Shown: piece by piece, positions 380 to 64,000 of the stretch
Layout: each line of letters starts with the position of its first letter
Position numbering within the stretch: position 1 is the stretch's first letter
Assembly (NCBI RefSeq): GCF_028641065.1
Contig: NC_073396.1
Coordinates: forward strand, 10,416,001-10,480,000
Reading direction: 5' to 3'
DNA from: Leucoraja erinacea
Lineage: Eukaryota
Length of the DNA stretch: 64,000 bases
Translations under genes and position numbers: made by a program
The notes under the pieces: model-generated
What the model saw: only the letters and a program-made list of their open reading frames with translations
Databases searched by the model: none
Told to the model about the DNA's origin: nothing

Positions 380-3194
380 TTTTTTTTTTTTTGTTTTTTT
401 TTTTTTGTTTTTTTTATTAGAAGTTAATACAGCACAAAACAGTACAGTGGCGCCTAATTTTAGGTGCCAACTATGTAATACCGTAATCCATTCTATGTAC
501 AACCTCTAGTTTTATGTTATAAGAAAAAAGTAAGCAGATCAAGAAAAAGAAAGCAATAGAAAGGGGAAAAAGTGGAAAAATAGATGGCAGAGAGTAGAAA
601 AACGTGAAGTGTGTATATAAAAAATAAAAAAAGGAAGAGAGAAAGAGGAGAGTAGCAATAGAAGAGAAGGCCCCTTAAAAGAGAATTTTTCAAATCTGTA
701 TTCGGAGATGTAGATCTATCCGCGTCATGAACTGAAATCGGCAATCCTTACGGCACCGCTGCATCACATGATTCCAAAAAGTCGATGAAAGGAGACCAAC
801 TCTTTAAGAATTGGTCATATTTATCTATTAGTCGGAGTCTCATTTCTTCAAGGCGTGCTATGTCCATCATATTCCTAATCCACATTTTAACAGTTGGTGT
901 GGTTGTACTTTTCCAAAATTTAAGTATCAATTTCTTTCCAATTATTAACCCATAATTAAAAAAAAACATTTTGATCTTTATTTAAATTGGTATCTTCTCC
1001 TATTATTCCAAATATAATCCATTCCGTTTTGGGTTCTATTCTTGACTTGAAAATCTTTGTAAATATATCAAATATATCACTCCAAAATTTATTCAACTTT
1101 GTACATCCAACAAATGAGTGTGTTATATTAGCGTTTTGAAACAAACATTTATCGCATCTGGGAGAGACGTTTGGATAAAATTTGTTCAACCTCGTTTTTG
1201 AATAATATAGTCTATGTAATAATTTGAATTGAATTAAATTGTGTCTTGCATTAATAGAACAGTTATGTGTGTTCATCAAATATTTTTTCCCATCTATCCT
1301 TCGAGATCTTTGTCATTAGCTCTTGTTCCCAATCTTCCCTTAATGCTTCTGTTGAGGGTGATTCTCTATTTAATATATTATTATAAAAGTATGATATTAA
1401 TTTTTGTGAATCAGCCTTAATATTCATTGCTTCTTCTAAAGGATCTAAAAATATAGTTTGAAATCTATGTGTATGTTTCTTCATAAAGTCACATACCTGT
1501 ATATATTTAAAATATTGATTATCCTTCAATTTAAATTTTAATTTTAATTGTTGAAATGATAACAGTTTGCCCACTTCATACATATCCCCTACTTTCCTAA
1601 TCCCCAGTCTATCCCATTGCTGATATGTGTTGTCGATGAGAGAAGGTTTGAATGCGGGGTTGTTCAGTAGTGGGGTTAGTACTGATAAATTATTTAATTT
1701 CAAGGATGCTTTTATTTGTTTCCAAATTCTTATTATATTGTGAATAATTGGGTTCTTCTTATATATTATACTATTCAATTTTATCGGTGAGAGCAGGATC
1801 GTTCCTATATCGTGCGGATAGCACTCCTCTTTCTCCATTCTTATCCACTCCAACTGCTGAGTGGAACTATCTAGCCAGTATATTATGTTCTTAATATGCA
1901 CTGCCCAGTAGTAATATATAAAGTTAGGTAATGATAAACCCCCCACTTCTTTAGATTTGCACAAATGCTTTCGTTGAATTCTATGTGTTCTGTAGTCCCA
2001 TATAAAATTAGTGATAGTGGAATCTAATTTTTTGAAAAAATATTTTGGAATATATATTGGAATTGCTTGAAACAAATATATTAATTGTGGTAGGAAAGTC
2101 ATTTTTATAGCGTTAATTCTGCCTATCAATGAGAGTGGAAGCGTTTTCCAAAATTTAATCGTATCATTCAGTTTATTTAATAGTGGTATAAAATTGGCAC
2201 TAAATAATGATTTTGTGTCTTCTCGTAATTTGAATACCCAGGTACTTAAATTTTTCTGTTGCAATTTTGAAGGGGAATTTTAGTAAGTGTCTCGAATCCT
2301 GTGGTTTTAAAGACATAATTTCGCTTTTATTCCAATTTATTCTGTATCCTGAAAAAGAGCCGAATTCCTCAATTAGTGTTAATAAGGTGGGTATACTCGT
2401 TTGTGTATTAGTAATATATAAAAGGATATCATCCGCGTATAATGAAATTTTATTCTTTGAGTCCTTGCTGTTATATCCGTGAATATTCGGGTGATTTCTA
2501 ATCCTTTCGGCCAACGGTTCTATCATAAGGGCAAATAGCAATGGTGATAAGGCACACCCTTGCCTATTACCCCTTGATAGGTAAAATTTTGGAGATAGTG
2601 TATTGTTAGTTAATATTCTTGCCGTAGGTCTGTCATAAAGTAGTTTAATCCATCTGATAAAATTCTCTCCCATATTAAATTTTTTGGAGTACCTTGTATA
2701 AATACTGCCATTCTACTTGATCAAATGCCTTCTCTGCATCCAACGTGACCACTGAGATATCTTCATTGTCCTTCTTATGAGAGTACATTATATTAAAAAG
2801 CCTTCTCAAATTATTAAATGATTGTCTTTTGGGTATAAATCCCGTTTGATCCGTATTTATTAAATTGTTAATATAATTATTTAGCCTTCTAGCTAGAATC
2901 TTTGCTAAAATTTTCTGATCCGTATTTAGAAGTGATATAGCTCTATAAGAACCAGGCTCTTCTAAATCTTTATCTTTTTTTGGTATAAGCGTTATTGTTG
3001 CTTCTGCTAGGGTTTCTGGTAGTTTATTTTCAGTATAAGCCTGCGTGTATAAATTAAATAATCTTGGTACAATAGACTCCTGAAATCTTTTATAAAATTC
3101 ATTACTAAAGCCATCTGGTCCTGGGGTCTTCCCATTTTTCAATGAGTTTATTATTTGTTTTATTTCTTCACTAGTAATCCGTGCTCCTAATTGC
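380..3194 (-). mobile_element. 5'-truncated L1-clade LINE (ORF2 RT + C-terminal zinc knuckle, 3'UTR, poly(A))
   Basis: ORF pieces 2675-3142 (KTPGPDGF, YRAISLLNTD, LDAEKAFD), 2200-2673 (QGCALSP, YADD, KYLGI), 1263-2264, 956-1279 (CDKC..H..C) and 748-969. Poly-T on + at ~380-416. TSD GTGGATTTTCT at 369-379 and 3195-3205. Confidence 0.95.
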
Positions 3195-3235
3195 GTGGAT
3201 TTTCTATATCGCAGATATCTTTGCTTTATATTCTA

Positions 3236-25079: not shown

Positions 25080-27846
25080 CTAGCGATAACGCGCTGGGGG
25101 TAAGATGTTGCTCCTGGATCTAGTAGATCTGGTTGTTGCCTGCAGTGTTGCACTCGATGTATTGGTAACTTGTTGAGTTGTTTCCTGGCCATTGGTTGGT
25201 GCTGGTTGACTATATGACTCACTGGTAGCAGTTTGTGAGAATGTGTTGTCATCAATGGTAGGTGTTGCTGCTGCTGTGGGTGGTGTCCTAGGAGTTGCTG
25301 GTGTTGTCTTTGAAGTTGCAGGTGTTGACATTTCAGGTGTCGGGCGGATGTGAATTCTGTTTCGTCTCAACTGCCTGCCCGGTTCTGTCTCTATGATATA
25401 TGATTTTGGGGTTCCAGCCCTGCTGGTGATTTGTGCTGGGGTCCATTTCTTTGTTGTTGGATCCTGAGCATGTACGTTTTGGCCTTGAAATAGTTCAGGC
25501 AAGTACTGTGCATTTTTGTTGTATTGTTTCAGCCCCTCCTCCTGGGCAGCTGCCAATTTTGCCCTTGTTTCTTCTTGGTTGATAGGGGGTTGGATTTTGC
25601 TTGGCAGGGTGGTTTTGTATTTCCTGCCATTTAGCATTTCTGCAGGAGACCATGTCAGCCTTTAGTGGAGTTGCCCGTAAGGATAAAAGTGCCAGGTTTG
25701 GATCTTCCTTTGCCTCTCGGCATTTTATTAGTGTTTTCTTGACTGTCTGTACTTGCCTTTCAATAAACCCATGGCCCTTTGGGTAATGTGGTGAAGATGT
25801 TGTGATTTTGAACCCGTATTCGGTGGCTAGCTCTCTGAATTCCCGAGATGTGAATTGGGTTCCATTGTCACATACGATCTGCTCAGGTATTCCTTGCTCT
25901 GCAAACAACCCTCTAACAATTGACACAATTGTTTTAGCTTTCAAATCCTTTACGTTTCTCACAAATGGGAATTTGGAGTAGTAGCAGGCCATAATCAAAT
26001 ACCATTGCTGGTTCTCTGTGAACAGGTCTGCTCCGATGGTTTGCCATGGCCGGCTTGGGATATCACTGGGTGTCATTTCCTCCTTCTGTTGTGAATTCCT
26101 GTATTTTTGGCATATGTGGCATGTAGATACCAGCTTTTCTATGTCCTTGTACATGCCTATCCAGTACACAGCGGATTTAGCACGGAGTCTGCACTTTTCC
26201 ATTCCTAAGTGTCCCTGGTGGATCTTTTCGAGGATTTCTTTTTGCATGGACTTGGGTATGATGATTCGTGATCCGGCCATCAGGACTCCATTCTCTACCG
26301 AAATATCATCACGGATGGTCCAGTATTCGCGGAGGAGAGGCTGAACTTGTTGTCTCTTTTCTGGCCACCCCTGTATTACCATTTGGGTGAGGAGCTGGAG
26401 TTCTTCATCTCTGGCTGTTTCCTCTTTGATCTGTTCCAGCTTCACGCTTGTCACACTCACAATGTGGTGGATCTTTATGCTCAGCCCTTCCATCTCTTGT
26501 TTGTCATGTGTTGATAGTCTGGAGAGGGCGTCAGCTAGCAGCAGGTCTTTTCCTGGCTTGTATCTGATGTTGTAGTCGTAGTGCTGTAGCCTCAGTAATA
26601 GTCTCTGTAGTCTGGGTGGTGCTTTGGTGAGGTTTTTTTTTTCGATTTGTTCTAGAGGGCGGTGGTCTGTTTCAATGTCAAAATTTCATCCATATAGGTA
26701 AGTGTGAAATTTCTCGCAGCCATAGACTACTGCTAAGAGTTCTCTCTCTATGTTTGCGTACCTTGATTCTGTAGGCGTGAGTGCTTTGGATGCATACGCA
26801 ATAGGTCGGCCATTTTGTATCAGTACTGCTCCAACTCCTCTCATGGAGGCATCAACTTGGAGTGTTACAGGTTTCTGCCTGTCATAGTACTGCAGGATCG
26901 TTTCTTTGCTGATGAGTTGTTTTATTTTTTTTAAATCTTGGCTATGTGAAGCACACCAATCAAACTCAGCGTCGTCTTTCATCAATTCGCGGAGATTTGC
27001 TGTGTGATTAGCAAGCTTAGGTATGAAGACTCCCATGTATTGTATGAGCCCTAGGAAACTTCTTAGCTGTTTCTTGTCTTTGGGTTCCTCCATGTGGTTG
27101 ATAGCATCCACTTTTGTAGGGTCCGGTTTCACTCCTTCTGCAGAGTAAATCAGTCCAAAGAATTTGCACTCCCTTTCTTTGATCATGCATTTGTCTGCAT
27201 TGAGCTTTATGCCGGCTCTTCGAGTTTTTTCCATAGCCTCATGGAGGTTGTAATCATGCGTGTTTTCATCTCTGCCGTATATTTGGATATCATCTGCTAT
27301 CCCGATTGCCCCTTTACAGCCTTTGTATGTTTCATCTATTTTCCGCTGGAAGACATCTTGACTCACCTTCAGCCCGAATGGGAGCCTGTTGAATCTGAAT
27401 CTGCCAAATGGCGTGTTGAAAGTGGTGAGCATTGATGACTCTTGGTCTATTTTGATGTTCCAATATCCATTGCTAGCATCCAGCTTGCTGAACACCTTGG
27501 AACCGGCCAGTGCTGGTGTGATCTCTTCAAGGGTTGGAGTTGGATAATGGTCGCGCTTCAATGCATTGTTCAGATCCCTGGGATCAAGGCATATCCTTAG
27601 TTTTCCGTTTGGCTTTCCTTTGACAACAATTGAATTCACCCAATCAGTTGGTTGAGTTATTTCTGTGATGATGCCCTTTTTTTCCATTTCGTTTAGTTGT
27701 TCCCTTAGCCTCTCTTTCAGTTCAAGGGGAACACGGCGGGGTGGGTGGATCACTGGTTTCACACTGGGGTCTACTGTGATATGGTATTCGTATTCCTCAA
27801 AACAACCAACGGTATCGTCAAAACACTCTGGGTACATGTCAATCAA
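25080..27846 (-). pseudogene. pol: Frameshifted Gypsy pol (RT, RNase H, integrase)
   Basis: RT (KLRICLDPRDLN, LDASNGYW, LPFGL, IADDI), RNase H (VDASMRG, ERELLAVV), integrase HHCC (HQGH..CHIC) and DDE core (ADLF, CDNGTQF, IERQVQTVK). Confidence 0.92.
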
Positions 27847-28228
27847 TGAGTGTACCTGATACAAAGTAGTGCAGGAGGTTGGGACTGCTACAATGAATAT
27901 GTAGCATATGTAACAGTAATAATAGCTCATCTTATTCCATTTATTTATCTCAATCATCCTAAAAACAAATAAAGAACTTATGGGTTATTGATGGGGAACG
28001 ATCAGCCATGATCACAATGAATGGCGGTGCTGGCTCGAAGGGCTGAATAGCCTCCTCCTGCACCTATTTTCAATGTTTCTATGCTTCTATGTTTCTAAAT
28101 AGTAGTTCACAAGAGATTGCAGCACTTTGAGCTGAGGAGCTAGGTGTGGAGATAGCATTTAACACTTTCCAAAGGTATTCTTGACGCTGCTTTAACAAAT
28201 ATTATGTGATGAGACAGAAATGAGATGA

Positions 28229-57092: not shown

Positions 57093-58071
57093 TTGCGTAG
57101 TGCCTGATGGTTGCCGGGCAGAATCCTCAATTGGTCCGTCTGCCGTGATAAACATATTGGTATCGGTTTAGTATTGTCACAGGCACTGAGATACAGTGAA
57201 AAGTTTTTTGTTTGCATGCTATCCAAATCAGATAATACAATCAAGCCGTTGACGAACAGTGAGAGCAAAGAGAAAAATACCACAGTAAAGTATATAGTAC
57301 AGGTAGATATCCTTTTAGTTCAATTCAGTTTACTTTAATCATGCACAGTCATTCCGCTGACTGGATAACCATATAATCATATAACCATTACAGCACGGAA
57401 ACAGGCCATCTCGGCCCTTCAAGTCCGTGCTGAACACTTTTTTTTCCCTTCCCCCCCCTAGTCCCATCTACCTGCACTCAGACCATAACCCTCCATTCCT
57501 TTCCCGTTCATATACCTATCCAATTTATTTTTAAATGAAAAAAATGATAGCATGCCACAAAAAAAAACTTTTCACTGTACATGAGAGAAGAAACTAAACA
57601 AAGAAAAAGTTGTGAATCACCTGAACCCAATTGATCCACAAAACAGTCCCCCAATCTGTGTTTGTGTTGTGCAGCCCAATGACATAATTTCAACACATCT
57701 TTACCTGAATACTACTTACAATCAAATAAAAGGCACAGTGTTGCTGCATTTACTTTAATTTAAATACTGTAGCTTTCAGACCAAATGCTGAAAAAGATAC
57801 ATTTTCAGATATACCGGTGTTACATATATTTAATACACACAGATAATGTGAAGAAAGTAGCAACAAAACTCTTTTGAGAACACCAACTAACATGAAACTA
57901 ATTTTGGAAGTACAGTATAAGAAATGTTCTCAACTAACAAAATCTTTCTTTTGAGCATTTTACCATCAAACTGCAACCAACCACAACCACAATCCAGTAA
58001 GTATATACATAAAAATATATATATATATATATATATGATTTGTAAGGTTTGTAGATAATTCATACATCAAC

Positions 58072-58279
58072 TTATTGCACAGGGACTTTCTTTTTTGGAA
58101 CCAGAACTTTTCTCTTGGGGAAATTCACCCGTTGCCTGGGCGTTTCGGCAAGCTTAAGTTTCATTTCATCAACGGTGACTTCCAGAGCACTGAATTTTTC
58201 AGTCAGATCTCCGAGGTGTTCTTTCAGTGAATTGAACTCTTTAAAGAGATCACCAAGCGCGTCGGAGAGAGGTGAGATC
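58072..58279 (-). CDS. Terminal coding exon (ISPLSDALGDLFKEFNSLKEHLGDLTEKFSALEVTVDEMKLKLAETPRQRVNFPKRKVLVPKKKVPVQ*)
   Basis: Acceptor ttctctttcag|G. 208 nt ending in TAA, with a heptad pattern. Total CDS 100+130+208=438 nt = 145 aa + stop. Confidence 0.85.
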
Positions 58280-60479
58280 CTGAAAGAGAACAGAAATGGT
58301 TTTTTTTTTAAATGCTCCAAAGCATGTGGACCCGACTTTGGAGTTTGGACTTTTTCTTTGTTAACGGCGCCACACAAAAAGTCTGACATTTGGAGGTATG
58401 TCACGCTTCCCTATTTCTTGCCCAAAATATGGGCACTGTGCATTTGTGGGTTGTGCAAAAGAATTTCTCTGTGCTGTGCATACGTGGCTATAAAGAACCA
58501 TTAAACCATTGACAAATGCAACACATTTTACATGGTCGCTGTTCTTAAATTTAAAAGTAAAGGTATTTTAAAAAGGTATGAAAAGTAATCTCTTTTTTGG
58601 CCAGCATTTTCTATTTTCTCCCTCTTTTAGGTTATTCTAAGTTATCAGAGCTAGCAACTGGTTCTACCATCTTTGCTTTTGGGCTGGGATTTTGAAGGAA
58701 TGCCATGCTGGGCTAGTGATTTGCTTCCTGATTTCCCCTCCCTCCATGCGAGGAAGTAACACGCACTCATATTTCTACTGCTGTGACTTGTGCTCCATAT
58801 CTATGTATATATATATATATATGTATATACTTGGGCTATGTTACTCTGCAGATCAGTGAGAGGCATCAGAACATAGAACAGTACAGCACTGGGACAGGTC
58901 CTTCGGCCCACAATGCCTGTGTCGAGAAGTATGCCAAGACCAAGATCATGGTGCCATAGTACAACGGTGAGTACTTATTTTGCCTTTAAGGATCTTGTTC
59001 CACATTGTAATCCTATGCAAATAATTTACAGATTTACGAATTGCATTTGACGGTATCTGAAAAGTGAGTAAATTCACATCCAGGTTGTCCACAGTGGATA
59101 TGGTCCAAATTTATCCCCACCTTTCAACTGGTGGATCTGATTTTAAAGTTATAATAGGTCAAATAAATTCCTATGAAATTCTGGTAAATGTTGTTTTGTA
59201 CAAAGAGGCATTTTGGTACTTTTTGAATTACCCTACAACAAATTCAATAAATGATGTGTGACAACTTCATTGTGCCAGTGTAAGTTACTTCACAAATACA
59301 TTAGTTTGTCCTACAACTTGCTGAAAGACGCGCAGGTATTATATTTGCCTGTGTATTTATTTGTAGATTTGGGATGGGAAAAACAACGTGAAACATTCCA
59401 GTTTAAAACAGGATCTTTTCCTAACATTGTAGCAATTTTCAATATTGCCCCGTTCCATATTCCATGGTGGTATTTGCAAATGTAATATGTTGAAATAAGA
59501 ATTCCCCCATTCCGCTCAACAAAATCAAGCATCATTAAAGTGTGGTCTAAGATTTTTGATGTTTGTTTTTAAAAGTTCATTATATCACGGATTATGCACA
59601 CCAATCAAATATATCAGGTGGTCTTGAAAACACAAGAGCTCCTGAATTTTAATTTATGTTTTTTCTAGTAAGCTTTGCTTTCTAAATTTTTTAGTACTAC
59701 CCTGTACCTTGATCAATATGACAGTTTTTGGACACAGGTGAAGTTATTTAGGTGGATCAATAACAGTCAATGCTTTGAAGCTTCAATCTTTTCTCCTTAC
59801 AAGAGCCAAACCCCATCTTTGGTGTTGAGTCAGACTCTGCTGTACCTGTTTGCCAAAAAAACGATGAAAAATGCATCCAAGATTGTGCTAGCCTGGAATA
59901 AATTGTACCAAATAATTCATAACTGATGTTCTGTCACTTAACTTTGCAAAAACATTTTAATCTCAGGCTCTTTGAATTCTATTTTCAGGCACAGATTACC
60001 ATTTGGAAATTTAGGCTTCAGCAACTAACATTGGTGCAAAATGCAAGTGCAAAATGATAGCTCCAACACTGCATTAAAAGTTGCCAAACCAAACAGATGT
60101 CTGAAATATTTACTTAGCAGGTTTCTGATTTTTCTTTTAACTTAACCATTGCGTTGAGGTATAAATCTGTTGAAAATTCCTTCCATTCATAGTTCTATCG
60201 CAGAGAAACAATTTGAGTTAGCAAAAAAAAGCCATATTTCTATTTGTAATTTTAACAAATAAGGTCTTACATTAAATTATATAACCAAGAGCCATTACAT
60301 TTAATGTTGAAATGCCCATTTAATCTAAAAGTGAATCTATACGTGAATCAGCTAAATAATATCAGTACTCCAGTATTAATGCTACATCTCATTCAAAGGA
60401 AATTCCCATTATAGCTTGATTTTGGTTAAAGGCAATAAAATCAATCAGTTTTGAGTTATTGCATCGAAACACCCATCAC

Positions 60480-60609
60480 CTGGCATAGTCAGGGAGGAGA
60501 GACTGGTGATCTTGAGTCAGCGAGTTTCTCATCTGAGTCAAAATGTCAAATCTCCAGTTGTCCAATATCTCTGTCAAATTGGCCACTCCGCGCATATTAA
60601 CCTTACCGG
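60480..60609 (-). CDS. Coding exon 2 (SGKVNMRGVANLTEILDNWRFDILTQMRNSLTQDHQSLLPDYAR)
   Basis: Acceptor tttttgcag|CC and donor CCAG|GTGATG. 130 nt, phase 1 in and phase 2 out, open frame compatible with both flanking exons. Confidence 0.85.
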
Positions 60610-61183
60610 CTGCAAAAAAAATATGTATGTAATATTCATATTATTCAACTGTTTCAATGAAAGAAAATGATAGCACGGTTCAGATTATCTACTGTTGCAT
60701 TTATTATTTGACATACTAAGATATTACTAAGAAACATTTTGGGGGAGCAATGTTAAATTACAATTGAAATTAGAAATAGTATTTAAAACTGCAATCTTTA
60801 TTACTTTTCCAGAACAACGCCTTTGAGACCCAATAAAATAATTTTGATCAAACTATAATGTTGGAATGTTATTTCAGGTTACAAAAATCCTCGGGAGTTT
60901 TTTCTCTACTCTAATTTCTAACTTTATTAGTCAAGTATGGAAACATAAGAACAAAAAAAAAATCATGTTGGTCATCAAAGTAACTCTCATCAATTGAAGT
61001 CTAGTTCCTCTAGATGATTGGATCTGGAATTCTCAGACATTTTAAAGCACAATTAATCGATGACAAGGAGAATATTGCTTACATCCAAAGATAGACACAA
61101 AATGCTGGAGTAGCTCAGCGGGATAGGTAGCATCTCCAGAGGGAAGGAATGGGTTAGTTTACATCCATCTCTGAATTACTTAC

Positions 61184-61283
61184 ATCCATCTCTGTAGTTC
61201 CACACATCGCTTGGTGGCGGTCTCTTTTTGCTCTGAACCATGGTCAAAAGAAACAGGGAAATCACAAAGAGCCTGAGAAACAT
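61184..61283 (-). CDS. Coding exon 1 of an uncharacterised secreted coiled-coil protein (MFLRLFVISLFLLTMVQSKKRPPPSDVWNYRDG), includes signal peptide
   Basis: ATG at 61283 followed by a hydrophobic signal-peptide-like stretch. Exon ends GATGGAT|GTAAGT (consensus donor, phase 1). Upstream acceptor ttcttcag|G at 61322 gives a 39-nt 5'UTR part. Splices in frame to the next two exons. Confidence 0.85.
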
Positions 61284-61807
61284 CCTGAGCGGAAAGGTTG
61301 GAAGCTCTCCTCAGTGGCTGTCCTGAAGAAGAGAGAGAATGCAAAGTAAATTGCATGTATATTCAAAACACAATTCTTGCACGACTCAGTGGCTCTTAAC
61401 ATTTCAGAATGGTATTAAAATGTTTTAAATGAAGGCATTTCTTTGCATGAAACCAAGTTATTTCAATGGATATGTACCGCCCTTGAGAAGCAAATGTGAT
61501 TCCTTACTCTCCGGTGAACACAAAGGTTGCTGTGAAGTCGCTCGGAGCAACAAACAGTTTGAGATCGTTCATCTGGAAATGATTTGAATGTGGTGTTGGA
61601 ACATGTGGAGACGACATCCAGCGTCACATGTTCAGGGAGTGGAGCACAGAAAATAAGCACTCGGCATCTGGACAGAGCTAAAAATGTTCTCACCATGTGT
61701 TTTAGATTTCTCAAGCAACTATATAAAAATATTTTTTGTTAACCCCATATTGCATGACAGTATTTTTCCAAACAAAAAGAACCCAGCCTTCCCGTCAAAT
61801 GTTCACG

Positions 61808-62805: not shown

Positions 62806-63360
62806 AAAAAGACATGATGTTAGACTAAACCAATGCCAGCTGCGAGCTGAACCCCAAGAAGAGAGTTATAAAGTTGATTTTACTTTGATCAGCCAGCAAA
62901 AAGTCACACTTGCAGTAACAAATCTTGCAGGTGGGATTATTGGAGGTCCACCATAATCAGATGTTAGAGATGGCTTGCAGGAGACATACAGGCTGTAGAG
63001 GTGCCAAAGACAGACCCCCACTGACACAATGGGCCGACACCAGAACTTGGTGAAAGGTTCAGTGCGAATTACAATGTACGTCAAACTCTCATATCACATG
63101 GGAAGATGATGGAGAGGGCTATCTCACATCAGAGAATTGATCCAACGCTACCTCAGGCTGGTCACCAAAGGTGGAAGCAGATACTGGGGAGAGAAACAAT
63201 GTCTGCACAGAGCGACAATGCCACACTGGCCCCAGGAGAACTACGGCCATTGAGAACCAGATCTCGAAGGACATTGATCAATCTATTTACCTTAAGTTTT
63301 CATGTCAAAGTGAAGCCCAGAACTTTGAACTTTGTTTTGAACTTTATTTTGTAGCTTTTT

Positions 63361-63982
63361 TAGAAACATAGAAACATAGAAATTAGGTGCAGGAGTAGGC
63401 CATTCGCCCTTCGAGCCTGCACCGCCATTCAATATGATCATGGCTGATCATCCAACTCAGTATCCCGTACCTGCCTTCTCTCCATACCCTCTGATCCCCT
63501 TGGCCACATCTAACTCCCTCTTAAATATAGCCAATGAACTGTGTGTGGCCTCGACTACCCTCTGCGGCAGAGAGTTCCAAAGATTCACCACTCTCTGTGT
63601 GAAAAAAGTTCTTCTCATCTCGGTTTTAAAGGATTTCCCCCTTATCCTTAAGCTGTGACCCCTTGTCCTGGACTTCCCCAACAACGGGAGCAATCTTCCT
63701 GCATCTAGCCTGTCCAACCCCTTAAGAATGTTGTAAGTTTCTATAAGATCCCCTCTCAATCTCCTAAATTCTAGAGAGTATAAACCAAGTCTATCCAGTC
63801 TTTCTTCATAGACAGTCCCGACATCCCAGGAATCAGTCTGGTGAACCTTCTCTGCACTCCCTCTATGGCAATAATGTCCTTCCTCAGATTTGGAGACCAA
63901 AACTGTACGCAATACTCCAGGTGTGGTCTCACCAAGACCCTGCACAACTGCAGTAGAACCTCCCTGCTCCTATACTCAAATC
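63361..63982 (-). mobile_element. Young CR1/HER1 LINE 3' fragment
   Basis: ORF 63457-63945 ([41 protein letters not shown]). (CTATGTTT)n tail. Confidence 0.9.
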
Positions 63983-64000
63983 CTTTTCCTTTTTATTCCT

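What the first reader, a model, noticed from the sequence alone, without database searches (positions are those of the whole stretch)
58072..61322. Hidden three-coding-exon gene for an uncharacterised 145-aa secreted coiled-coil protein
Seen: the spliced product is MFLRLFVISLFLLTMVQS-KKRPPPSDVWNYRDGSGKVNMRGVANLTEILDNWRFDILTQMRNSLTQDHQSLLPDYARISPLSDALGDLFKEFNSLKEHLGDLTEKFSALEVTVDEMKLKLAETPRQRVNFPKRKVLVPKKKVPVQ. Splice sites are canonical GT-AG with matching phases. It has a signal peptide, a basic KKR right after it, an N-L-T sequon, no cysteines, heptad repeats and a Lys/Arg-rich tail. The locus is repeat-poor relative to the rest of the window. Inference: an oligomerising extracellular (matrix- or glycosaminoglycan-binding, or prohormone-like) protein. 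I vaguely recall similar unnamed teleost 'si:ch211-' proteins but cannot assign a symbol.
Basis: partly seen in the sequence, partly recalled or inferred. Interest (0 to 1): 0.7.

Follow-up and report, generated by a model that had tools for sequence, protein, structure and literature searches.

The report
Unstudied fish-skin secreted coiled-coil gene
This is a real, spliced ray or skate gene for a small, likely secreted protein that is predicted to bundle into a coiled-coil rod; its zebrafish counterpart is a top marker of basal skin cells, and it belongs to an unnamed three-gene vertebrate family that likely works as an adaptor in the matrix under the skin.

Summary
On the minus strand, three exons (61283-61184, 60609-60480, 58279-58072) with GT-AG introns give 145 aa, and both joints stand in contigs of 3 of 4 runs from three studies. 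The gene is not hidden: it is the batoid orthologue of the database gene si:ch211-76l23.4 (86% identical to the Pristis protein). Two paralogues with the same intron phases lie in this genome (si:dkey-282h22.5-like and si:ch211-243a20.3-like), on chromosomes that share three other gene families, so the three are likely genome-duplication copies. No Pfam family, solved fold or functional paper turned up. A three-copy model of a ray orthologue passes (0.72 against 0.00 for the best control). In published zebrafish tables the orthologue is the top marker of a krtt1c19e+ basal keratinocyte cluster, while the paralogues mark fibroblasts and hypodermis. This subfamily was found only in fishes; the paralogues reach birds, and no mammal appeared in the rows shown. 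The prohormone reading fails. Best reading: a secreted, glycosylated, oligomeric matrix adaptor at the skin's basement zone (about 45%); a paracrine ligand or enzyme regulator is the main rival.

The parts
61284..61322 (-). 5' UTR part of coding exon 1, behind a polypyrimidine tract and AG; some transcripts read through further upstream
   Evidence: contigs end at 61322 (X6), 61490 (X5), 61512 (X1)
61184..61283 (-). Coding exon 1: likely signal peptide (about 18 aa), basic cluster, W-N-Y-R-D-G motif; phase-1 donor
60610..61183 (-). Intron 1, 574 nt, GT-AG
   Evidence: joint in X1, X5, X6
60480..60609 (-). Coding exon 2: conserved N-x-T sequon, predicted helix 1, L-P-D-Y kink; phase-2 donor
58280..60479 (-). 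Intron 2, 2200 nt, GT-AG
   Evidence: joint in X1, X5, X6
58072..58279 (-). Coding exon 3: predicted coiled coil (about residues 78-120) and a variable Lys/Arg-rich tail, stop TAA
57743..58071 (-). 3' UTR, at least to 57743; candidate poly(A) signals ATTAAA at 57834 and 57759, AATAAA at 57529
   Evidence: X6 contig 57743-57982; the true end is not shown

Best explanation
The locus is a spliced, strongly conserved gene (orthologue of fish si:ch211-76l23.4) whose likely secreted and N-glycosylated product is predicted to form a parallel coiled-coil oligomer, probably a trimer, that basal skin cells likely deposit in the matrix beneath them as a small adaptor. Shown: gene, splicing, orthology, two paralogues, conservation pattern. 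From published tables: the zebrafish orthologue marks krtt1c19e+ clusters that I read as basal keratinocytes, and the paralogues mark fibroblast and hypodermis clusters. Predicted: helix 39-66, kink at L-P-D-Y, helix 73-122, self-association. Inferred: bundling gathers the basic, unstructured tails at one end, where they would grip sulfated proteoglycans, while the invariant exposed residues of the N-terminal half (W-x-Y, V37-T46, D50, D55, N66-Q69) would bind a conserved protein partner such as a fibril or basement-membrane component. No partner has been identified.
For: Splicing. Sequon in 152 of 153 subfamily-A sequences counted, tail net charge >=+4 in 150 of 151; no KDEL-like end in 147 of 147; no hydrophobic stretch after the signal. 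39 positions are >=97% conserved over 147 orthologues from sharks to teleosts: 13 in the predicted a/d core, 9 elsewhere in the interface, 17 outside any listed interface, which suggests a binding surface. Three-copy model of the Narcine orthologue (P0004, residues 22-126, 80% identical): ipSAE 0.72 against 0.00 for the best of 3 controls, runs agree in >=73% of contacts, pLDDT >=71. The mark was reached by 21 of 30 solved pairs and 0 of 23 single chains in microbes, and by 17 of 29 and 0 of 30 in eukaryotes. Zebrafish orthologue: first-listed, highest-fold-change marker of caudal-fin cluster 7 (85% vs 30% of cells; krtt1c19e, cldni, epgn, sparc) and third in eye cluster 8 (88% vs 8%; krtt1c19e, col17a1b, itga6b, itgb4, col1a1b) (PMC8517238 supplement). 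In a second study it is a 'Basal Cell' gene higher in wild type than in hypothyroid skin (q 1e-32), and both paralogues are listed under hypodermis (PMC10495112 supplement). The paralogues mark fin cluster 4 with dcn, aspn, dpt, col1a1a and col12a1a and are up in intermuscular bone (PMC11689531). Basal epidermal cells deposit the zebrafish sub-epidermal collagen I (PMC6080847).
Against: No binding partner or localisation is shown. Expression data come from zebrafish, not this animal, and the authors label the two clusters 'Osteoblast_krtt1c19e high' and 'Stromal cell_rbp4 high'; the basal-keratinocyte reading is mine from the markers. Only three copies were folded, so dimer, tetramer or hetero-oligomer are not excluded; the calibration held two copies; among eukaryotes only 1 of 7 with no older solved relative passed (animals 7 of 16 overall), and coiled coils may pass from memory. 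The very high surface conservation fits a receptor ligand just as well. The tail is the least conserved part (top-residue frequency 0.46) and is short or weakly basic in some paralogues (B: 85 of 118 at >=+4). No signal-peptide predictor was available. The gene is also differentially expressed in scale-forming cells and is down in runx2b-/- tails, so it is not confined to keratinocytes.
Confidence: 0.45

Rival explanations
1. A paracrine ligand or secreted regulator: an oligomeric helical signal from basal epidermis to dermis or pigment cells, or an inhibitor of an extracellular enzyme in the manner of ANGPTL8 (a secreted coiled-coil-only protein; likeness recalled), with the basic tail limiting its range through heparan sulfate.
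For: 17 of the 39 near-invariant positions lie outside the predicted interface. Small size. Three retained paralogues in different cell types. Thyroid-hormone-dependent expression in basal cells, which signal to dermis in that study (PMC10495112). Co-markers include epgn, nppc and gphb5.
Against: No likeness to a known ligand in Pfam, PDB sequences or folds. All three paralogues sit in collagen-secreting cells. No receptor candidate.
Confidence: 0.3
2. The paralogues assemble into hetero-oligomers, as fibrinogen or laminin chains do, and subfamily A is the epidermal chain; the invariant Cys of subfamily B would lock B-containing bundles.
For: Same register and intron phases in all three. B and C are co-expressed in fin cluster 4, hypodermis and intermuscular bone. 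Cys in 121 of 121 B sequences.
Against: A marks different cells from B and C, and moves the opposite way in runx2b-/- tails (A -1.65, B +2.40, C +1.43). An orthologue of A passes as a homo-oligomer. Tetrapod rows held B and C only.
Confidence: 0.1
3. A prohormone cut at basic sites to release a peptide.
For: Basic cluster in residues 16-40 in 140 of 147 orthologues.
Against: The cluster follows the signal directly and is usually followed by Pro; R-x-K/R-R in 3 of 147, G-K/R-K/R in the core in 1 of 147, and no dibasic site in the window's core. Conservation spans about 90 residues with a heptad core rather than one short peptide.
Confidence: 0.05
4. A cationic skin defence (antimicrobial) protein, or a secretory-pathway helper for collagen.
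For: Skin expression and basic tail; made in collagen-secreting cells.
Against: Acidic core (net -4) and slow evolution from sharks to teleosts, unlike defence peptides; no ER-retention end in 147 of 147.
Confidence: 0.1

Closest known systems
si:ch211-76l23.4 (zebrafish ENSDARG00000096242; RefSeq 'uncharacterized protein' in sharks, rays, bichir, gar, teleosts)
   Same: Orthologue: 86% identical to Pristis, 80% to Narcine, 59-69% to bony fishes; groups with batoids at 100/98 support inside subfamily A.
   Different: Nothing structural. The gene is annotated but no functional paper was found.
si:dkey-282h22.5 / si:ch73-127m5.3 (subfamily B) and si:ch211-243a20.3 / chicken LOC417962 (subfamily C)
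   Same: Paralogues with the same signal, W-x-Y, helix, L-P-D/E-Y kink, coiled coil, basic tail and intron phases; copies in this genome on C23 and C37.
   Different: B carries an invariant Cys two residues before the sequon; C lacks the sequon (0 of 58); both mark fibroblast-type cells and persist in amphibians, reptiles and birds.
Tetranectin / CLEC3B N-terminal region (basic heparin-binding segment plus trimerising coiled coil; features recalled)
   Same: Works-like analogy: secreted, basic segment, predicted three-chain coiled coil, connective-tissue expression.
   Different: No C-type lectin domain, no Pfam or PDB match; the main basic segment is C-terminal; second intron is phase 2.
ANGPTL8, Fibin, CCDC3 (small secreted coiled-coil proteins; recalled)
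   Same: Signal peptide plus helical coiled coil and no other domain.
   Different: No Pfam hit to these families among 25 + 25 aligned members; analogy only.
PLAC9 (PF15205)
   Same: Small secreted helical protein; ESM Atlas feature score 0.75, 148 of 256 features.
   Different: Score is in the chance range; no PF15205 hit among the families listed; this genome has a separate PLAC9-like match on C34 (E 0.017).

Membership tests
si:ch211-76l23.4 orthologue group (subfamily A) | Best hits and tree placement with named si:ch211-76l23.4 proteins | tested here: met
   (batoid clade 100/98; subfamily A as a whole only 83/75)
si:ch211-76l23.4 orthologue group (subfamily A) | N-x-T sequon present, Cys at -2 absent | tested here: met
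si:ch211-76l23.4 orthologue group (subfamily A) | Same neighbouring genes as in teleosts | not testable with these tools
   neighbours found here only: GSG-1-family gene 173 kb away, IFT70-like gene 41 kb away; no teleost genome on hand
Whole-genome-duplication paralogues (ohnologues) | Paralogues on chromosomes that share other duplicated families | tested here: met
   GSG-1 family 3 of 3 matches on C20, C23, C37; weak-scoring 7tm_3 and multi-exon PMP22-type matches on the same three contigs; by-length chance 6e-4 given C37 (rough, families picked from recalled human synteny)
Whole-genome-duplication paralogues (ohnologues) | Duplications predate the shark/bony-fish split and a single copy exists in an invertebrate chordate | tested here: inconclusive
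   all three subfamilies hold chondrichthyan and bony-fish rows; no lamprey, hagfish or invertebrate row among the named hits
Homo-oligomeric coiled coil | Heptad hydrophobic core and self-association | tested here: met
   prediction only; number of chains not resolved
Peptide prohormones | Conserved convertase sites flanking a conserved peptide, with or without an amidation signal | tested here: not met
Tetranectin (CLEC3) family | C-type lectin domain | tested here: not met
   the protein ends at 145 aa with no Cys and no Pfam lectin hit
PLAC9 | PF15205 match | tested here: not met
   not among the families listed (first 25 of 31 shown)
Heparin-binding matrix proteins | Secretion, matrix deposition and glycosaminoglycan binding | not testable with these tools
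   sequence features and expression tables only

The most novel reading that the evidence does not exclude
An undescribed family of three secreted coiled-coil matrix proteins arose in the early vertebrate genome duplications and split by cell type: an epidermal member (this gene) that helps basal keratinocytes build or anchor the sub-epidermal collagen layer of fishes, and two fibroblast members. The epidermal member was lost in tetrapods and the whole family in mammals, making it a candidate missing component of fish-type skin and tendon matrix and of its scar-free repair.
Probability: 0.3. Interest if true: 0.7.

Novelty: new member of a known kind. Interest (0 to 1): 0.45.

Why it matters
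The gene model is ordinary database content, but no functional paper on the family was found, although it is strongly conserved from sharks to teleosts and is a top marker of basal skin cells in a published zebrafish atlas. Linking si:ch211-76l23.4, si:dkey-282h22.5 and si:ch211-243a20.3 as one family, with an epidermis/fibroblast split and apparent stepwise loss towards mammals, turns four anonymous zebrafish genes into one direct knockout experiment on how fish skin and tendon matrix is organised.

Tried and rejected
Raw reads: 4 of 4 runs of 2026 (X21-X24, 1-5% of each read, tissue not given) gave essentially no depth on the coding exons and no splice joint; cover fell on repeats. With tissue unknown this is not read as silence. 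Run X11 held no exon contig. No holder is on record as RNA. Processed pseudogene as the source of the joined contigs: own-genome searches gave exon-wise matches only. Pfam: no member reached a curated cut-off, generic coiled-coil hits only. PDB sequences: best E 0.0028, a CLEC4M neck, generic. Folds: Foldseek 0 matches; VIA-align best Z 6.1, none >=8, generic helices; a long helix is a weak query, so this does not show a new fold. First monomer model was poor (pLDDT 57), second 77.8. PLAC9 lead rejected. Papers: 0 hits for ch211-76l23.4, for Ensembl ids and for two phrase searches; 2 hits for 282h22, one relevant; for 243a20/LOC417962, two relevant; 1 for 127m5.3 and the LOC ids. Most subscription papers are not held. 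PMC8748784 supplements held none of four gene names. IBN_N search for an XPO6-like neighbour gave nothing on C20; the Alca 'FAAP100 isoform' protein matched only the family's exons. Three look-ups of earlier findings showed nothing on this family. dN/dS was not computed: no orthologous DNA was on hand.
Full report
1. Observation. The three coding exons lie on the minus strand at 61283-61184, 60609-60480 and 58279-58072. They join in frame through GT-AG introns of 574 and 2200 nt (phases 1 and 2) to 145 codons plus TAA, and give the protein written in the finding. Contigs of 3 of 4 runs laid (X1, X5, X6, from three studies; RNA status is the tool's guess) carry both joints, two of them in one contig across all exons. 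Four raw-read runs of unknown tissue, read at 1-5%, did not cover the exons. The gene body is 7% repeat against 43% for the rest of the window.

2. Identity. Exon 2 found 103 proteins among 104 candidates; the named ones are si:ch211-76l23.4 or unnamed proteins of sharks, rays, bichir, gar and teleosts. The whole protein is 86% identical to the Pristis and 80% to the Narcine protein and groups with them at 100/98, so the animal is a ray or skate and the gene is already modelled in its relatives. A profile search of 1.84 billion representatives gave 197 hits, of which 150 were listed; naming 30 of them and a tree of 34 selected rows gave three subfamilies: A (si:ch211-76l23.4; support 83/75), B (si:dkey-282h22.5, also si:ch73-127m5.3; 100/97) and C (si:ch211-243a20.3, chicken LOC417962; 100/100). 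The ESM Atlas returns the A and B clusters at 0.95-0.96 with no common Pfam family.

3. Paralogues and origin. This genome holds one copy of each: the window's gene on C20, B on C23 (16.81-16.82 Mb) and C on C37 (5.77 Mb), with the same exon boundaries and phases. The C37 copy lies 3 kb from a SOUL/HEBP-family gene, matching a chicken record of LOC417962 once labelled a heme-binding protein 1 isoform. All 3 GSG-1-family matches of the genome lie on C20 (173 kb from the gene), C23 and C37. Three weak-scoring 7tm_3 matches of 32 (GPRC5-like by my inference) and multi-exon PMP22-type matches lie on the same contigs. The three genes are therefore likely ohnologues. The nearest coding neighbour found upstream is an IFT70-like TPR gene about 41 kb away; within the window only retroelement frames hit Pfam (108 of 176 window frames of >=75 aa were scanned).

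4. Range. A tetrapod-weighted profile gave 278 hits, 120 listed: birds, crocodilians, turtles, lizards, snakes, frogs, salamanders, coelacanth and fishes, with no mammal. The 111 rows new in that list were 84 B, 27 C and 0 A. The broad profile gave 511 hits, 120 listed, all fishes where named; one row carries a 'Mustela' nr label on a protein also named as tilapia, which I take for a mislabel. Unlisted rows (391 of 511, 158 of 278, 47 of 197) were not seen and many rows have no name, so loss of A in tetrapods and of the family in mammals is inferred, not shown.

5. Anatomy. Of 454 proteins held, 332 had both core motifs and were counted; 122 fragments or divergent rows were dropped. The sequon is present in 152 of 153 A, 120 of 121 B and 0 of 58 C; a Cys two residues earlier in 121 of 121 B only; a tail of net charge >=+4 in 150 of 151 A, 85 of 118 B and 55 of 58 C. 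Over 147 full-length A proteins the core regions (28-119) have top-residue frequencies of 0.88-0.95 and the tail 0.46; 39 positions are >=97% conserved, 17 of them outside the predicted interface. AlphaFold2 on the Pristis protein gives helices 39-66 and 73-122 and a loose tail (pLDDT 77.8, pTM 0.31). Three copies of the Narcine core scored 0.72 against 0.00 for the best of 3 controls, with >=73% contact agreement and pLDDT >=71; contacts run in register at 78, 81, 85, 88, 92, 95, 99, 102, 106, 109 and 113, as in a parallel coiled coil. The mark was reached by 21 of 30 solved pairs and 0 of 23 single chains (microbes), 17 of 29 and 0 of 30 (eukaryotes; animals 7 of 16; 1 of 7 without an older solved relative). 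The pass supports self-association, may reflect memory of coiled coils, and does not fix the chain number. No Pfam, PDB-sequence or fold match rises above generic coiled coil.

6. Expression, from papers. PMC8517238 (passages of the text; rows and three parts of supplement 2): the zebrafish orthologue is the first-listed marker of caudal-fin cluster 7 and third of eye cluster 8, both krtt1c19e+, cldni+ and epgn+, the latter also col17a1b, itga6b, itgb4 and col1a1b. The authors call these clusters osteoblast and stromal, though they cite a basal-keratinocyte paper for krtt1c19e; I read them as basal keratinocytes. It also marks global cluster 35, which they call epithelial. B and C mark fin cluster 4 with dcn, aspn, dpt and col1a1a. 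PMC10495112 (passages; supplement rows): A is higher in wild-type than hypothyroid basal cells (q 1e-32) and higher in hypothyroid scale-forming cells; B and C are listed under hypodermis. PMC11689531 (passages; supplement rows, file cut when stored, so its single-cell tables were seen only in part): B and C are up in intermuscular bone, and in runx2b-/- tails A is down (-1.65) while B (+2.40) and C (+1.43) are up; the passages seen do not link B and C as relatives. PMC4625885 (passages): chicken C is down in oviduct after mating. PMC6080847 (abstract and passages): basal epidermal cells deposit sub-epidermal collagen I. PMC8748784: supplements searched, no hit. bioRxiv supplements were closed and may hold more.

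7. Mechanism. Best reading (0.45): a secreted glycoprotein rod, probably a trimer, released at the basal face of the epidermis, whose clustered basic tails would hold sulfated proteoglycans while the conserved exposed face binds a matrix protein; the paralogues would do the same in fibroblast and tendon matrix. Secretion, oligomer and partner are predicted or inferred. Rivals: paracrine ligand or enzyme regulator (0.30), hetero-oligomer of paralogues (0.10), defence protein or ER helper (0.10), prohormone (0.05; no conserved convertase or amidation pattern).

8. Novelty. The gene is a new species copy of a catalogued but unstudied gene. What I did not find in print is the family itself: its three-way paralogy, the epidermis/fibroblast split and the apparent losses. 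Interest 0.45; 0.7 if the matrix role and the losses hold (probability about 0.3). Names of human loci and the features of tetranectin, ANGPTL8, Fibin, CCDC3, fibrinogen and laminin are recalled, not from calls.

Noticed in passing
window 25083-27984, minus strand: LTR-retroelement pol region in two long frames (RT and RNase H at 26689-27984; integrase zinc finger and core at 25498-26685).
   Followed up: no
window 959-3232, minus strand: LINE-type reverse transcriptase in several broken frames with a zf-RVT end.
   Followed up: no
window 61150-61183: The last bases of exon 1 and the donor GT are repeated 21 nt downstream in intron 1, giving a decoy donor whose use would read through an in-frame stop; no contig used it.
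   Followed up: partly
window 58278/61183: Run X1 has a contig joint that skips exon 2 (side 29 nt, 'between not known'); it would shift the frame and may be an assembly artefact.
   Followed up: no
window 61356-61448: Four upstream ATGs lie in the region that X1 and X5 read through unspliced; splicing at the 61322 acceptor would remove them.
   Followed up: no
G000:C20 about 10.518-10.539 Mb (L018:7933-8286, L019, L020): Multi-exon IFT70/TTC30-like TPR gene on the + strand, head to head with the gene at about 41 kb.
   Followed up: partly
G000:C23:16814359-16824700 and G000:C37:5769084-5772430 (L004-L007): The two paralogues; C23 has the subfamily-B Cys and a 7-kb first intron, C37 lies tail to tail with a SOUL/HEBP gene.
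   Followed up: yes
P0181, P0363, P0439: Database mislabels from neighbouring genes: family members named 'heme-binding protein 1 isoform', 'FAAP100 isoform' and 'Nuclear localization 4 like'.
   Followed up: partly
window 63277-64000: A young, heavily transcribed repeat: depth above 1000 in all four raw-read runs.
   Followed up: no
L037 (G000:C34:13601624-13601737): PLAC9-like exon just under the Pfam cut-off (26.6 vs 27 bits).
   Followed up: no
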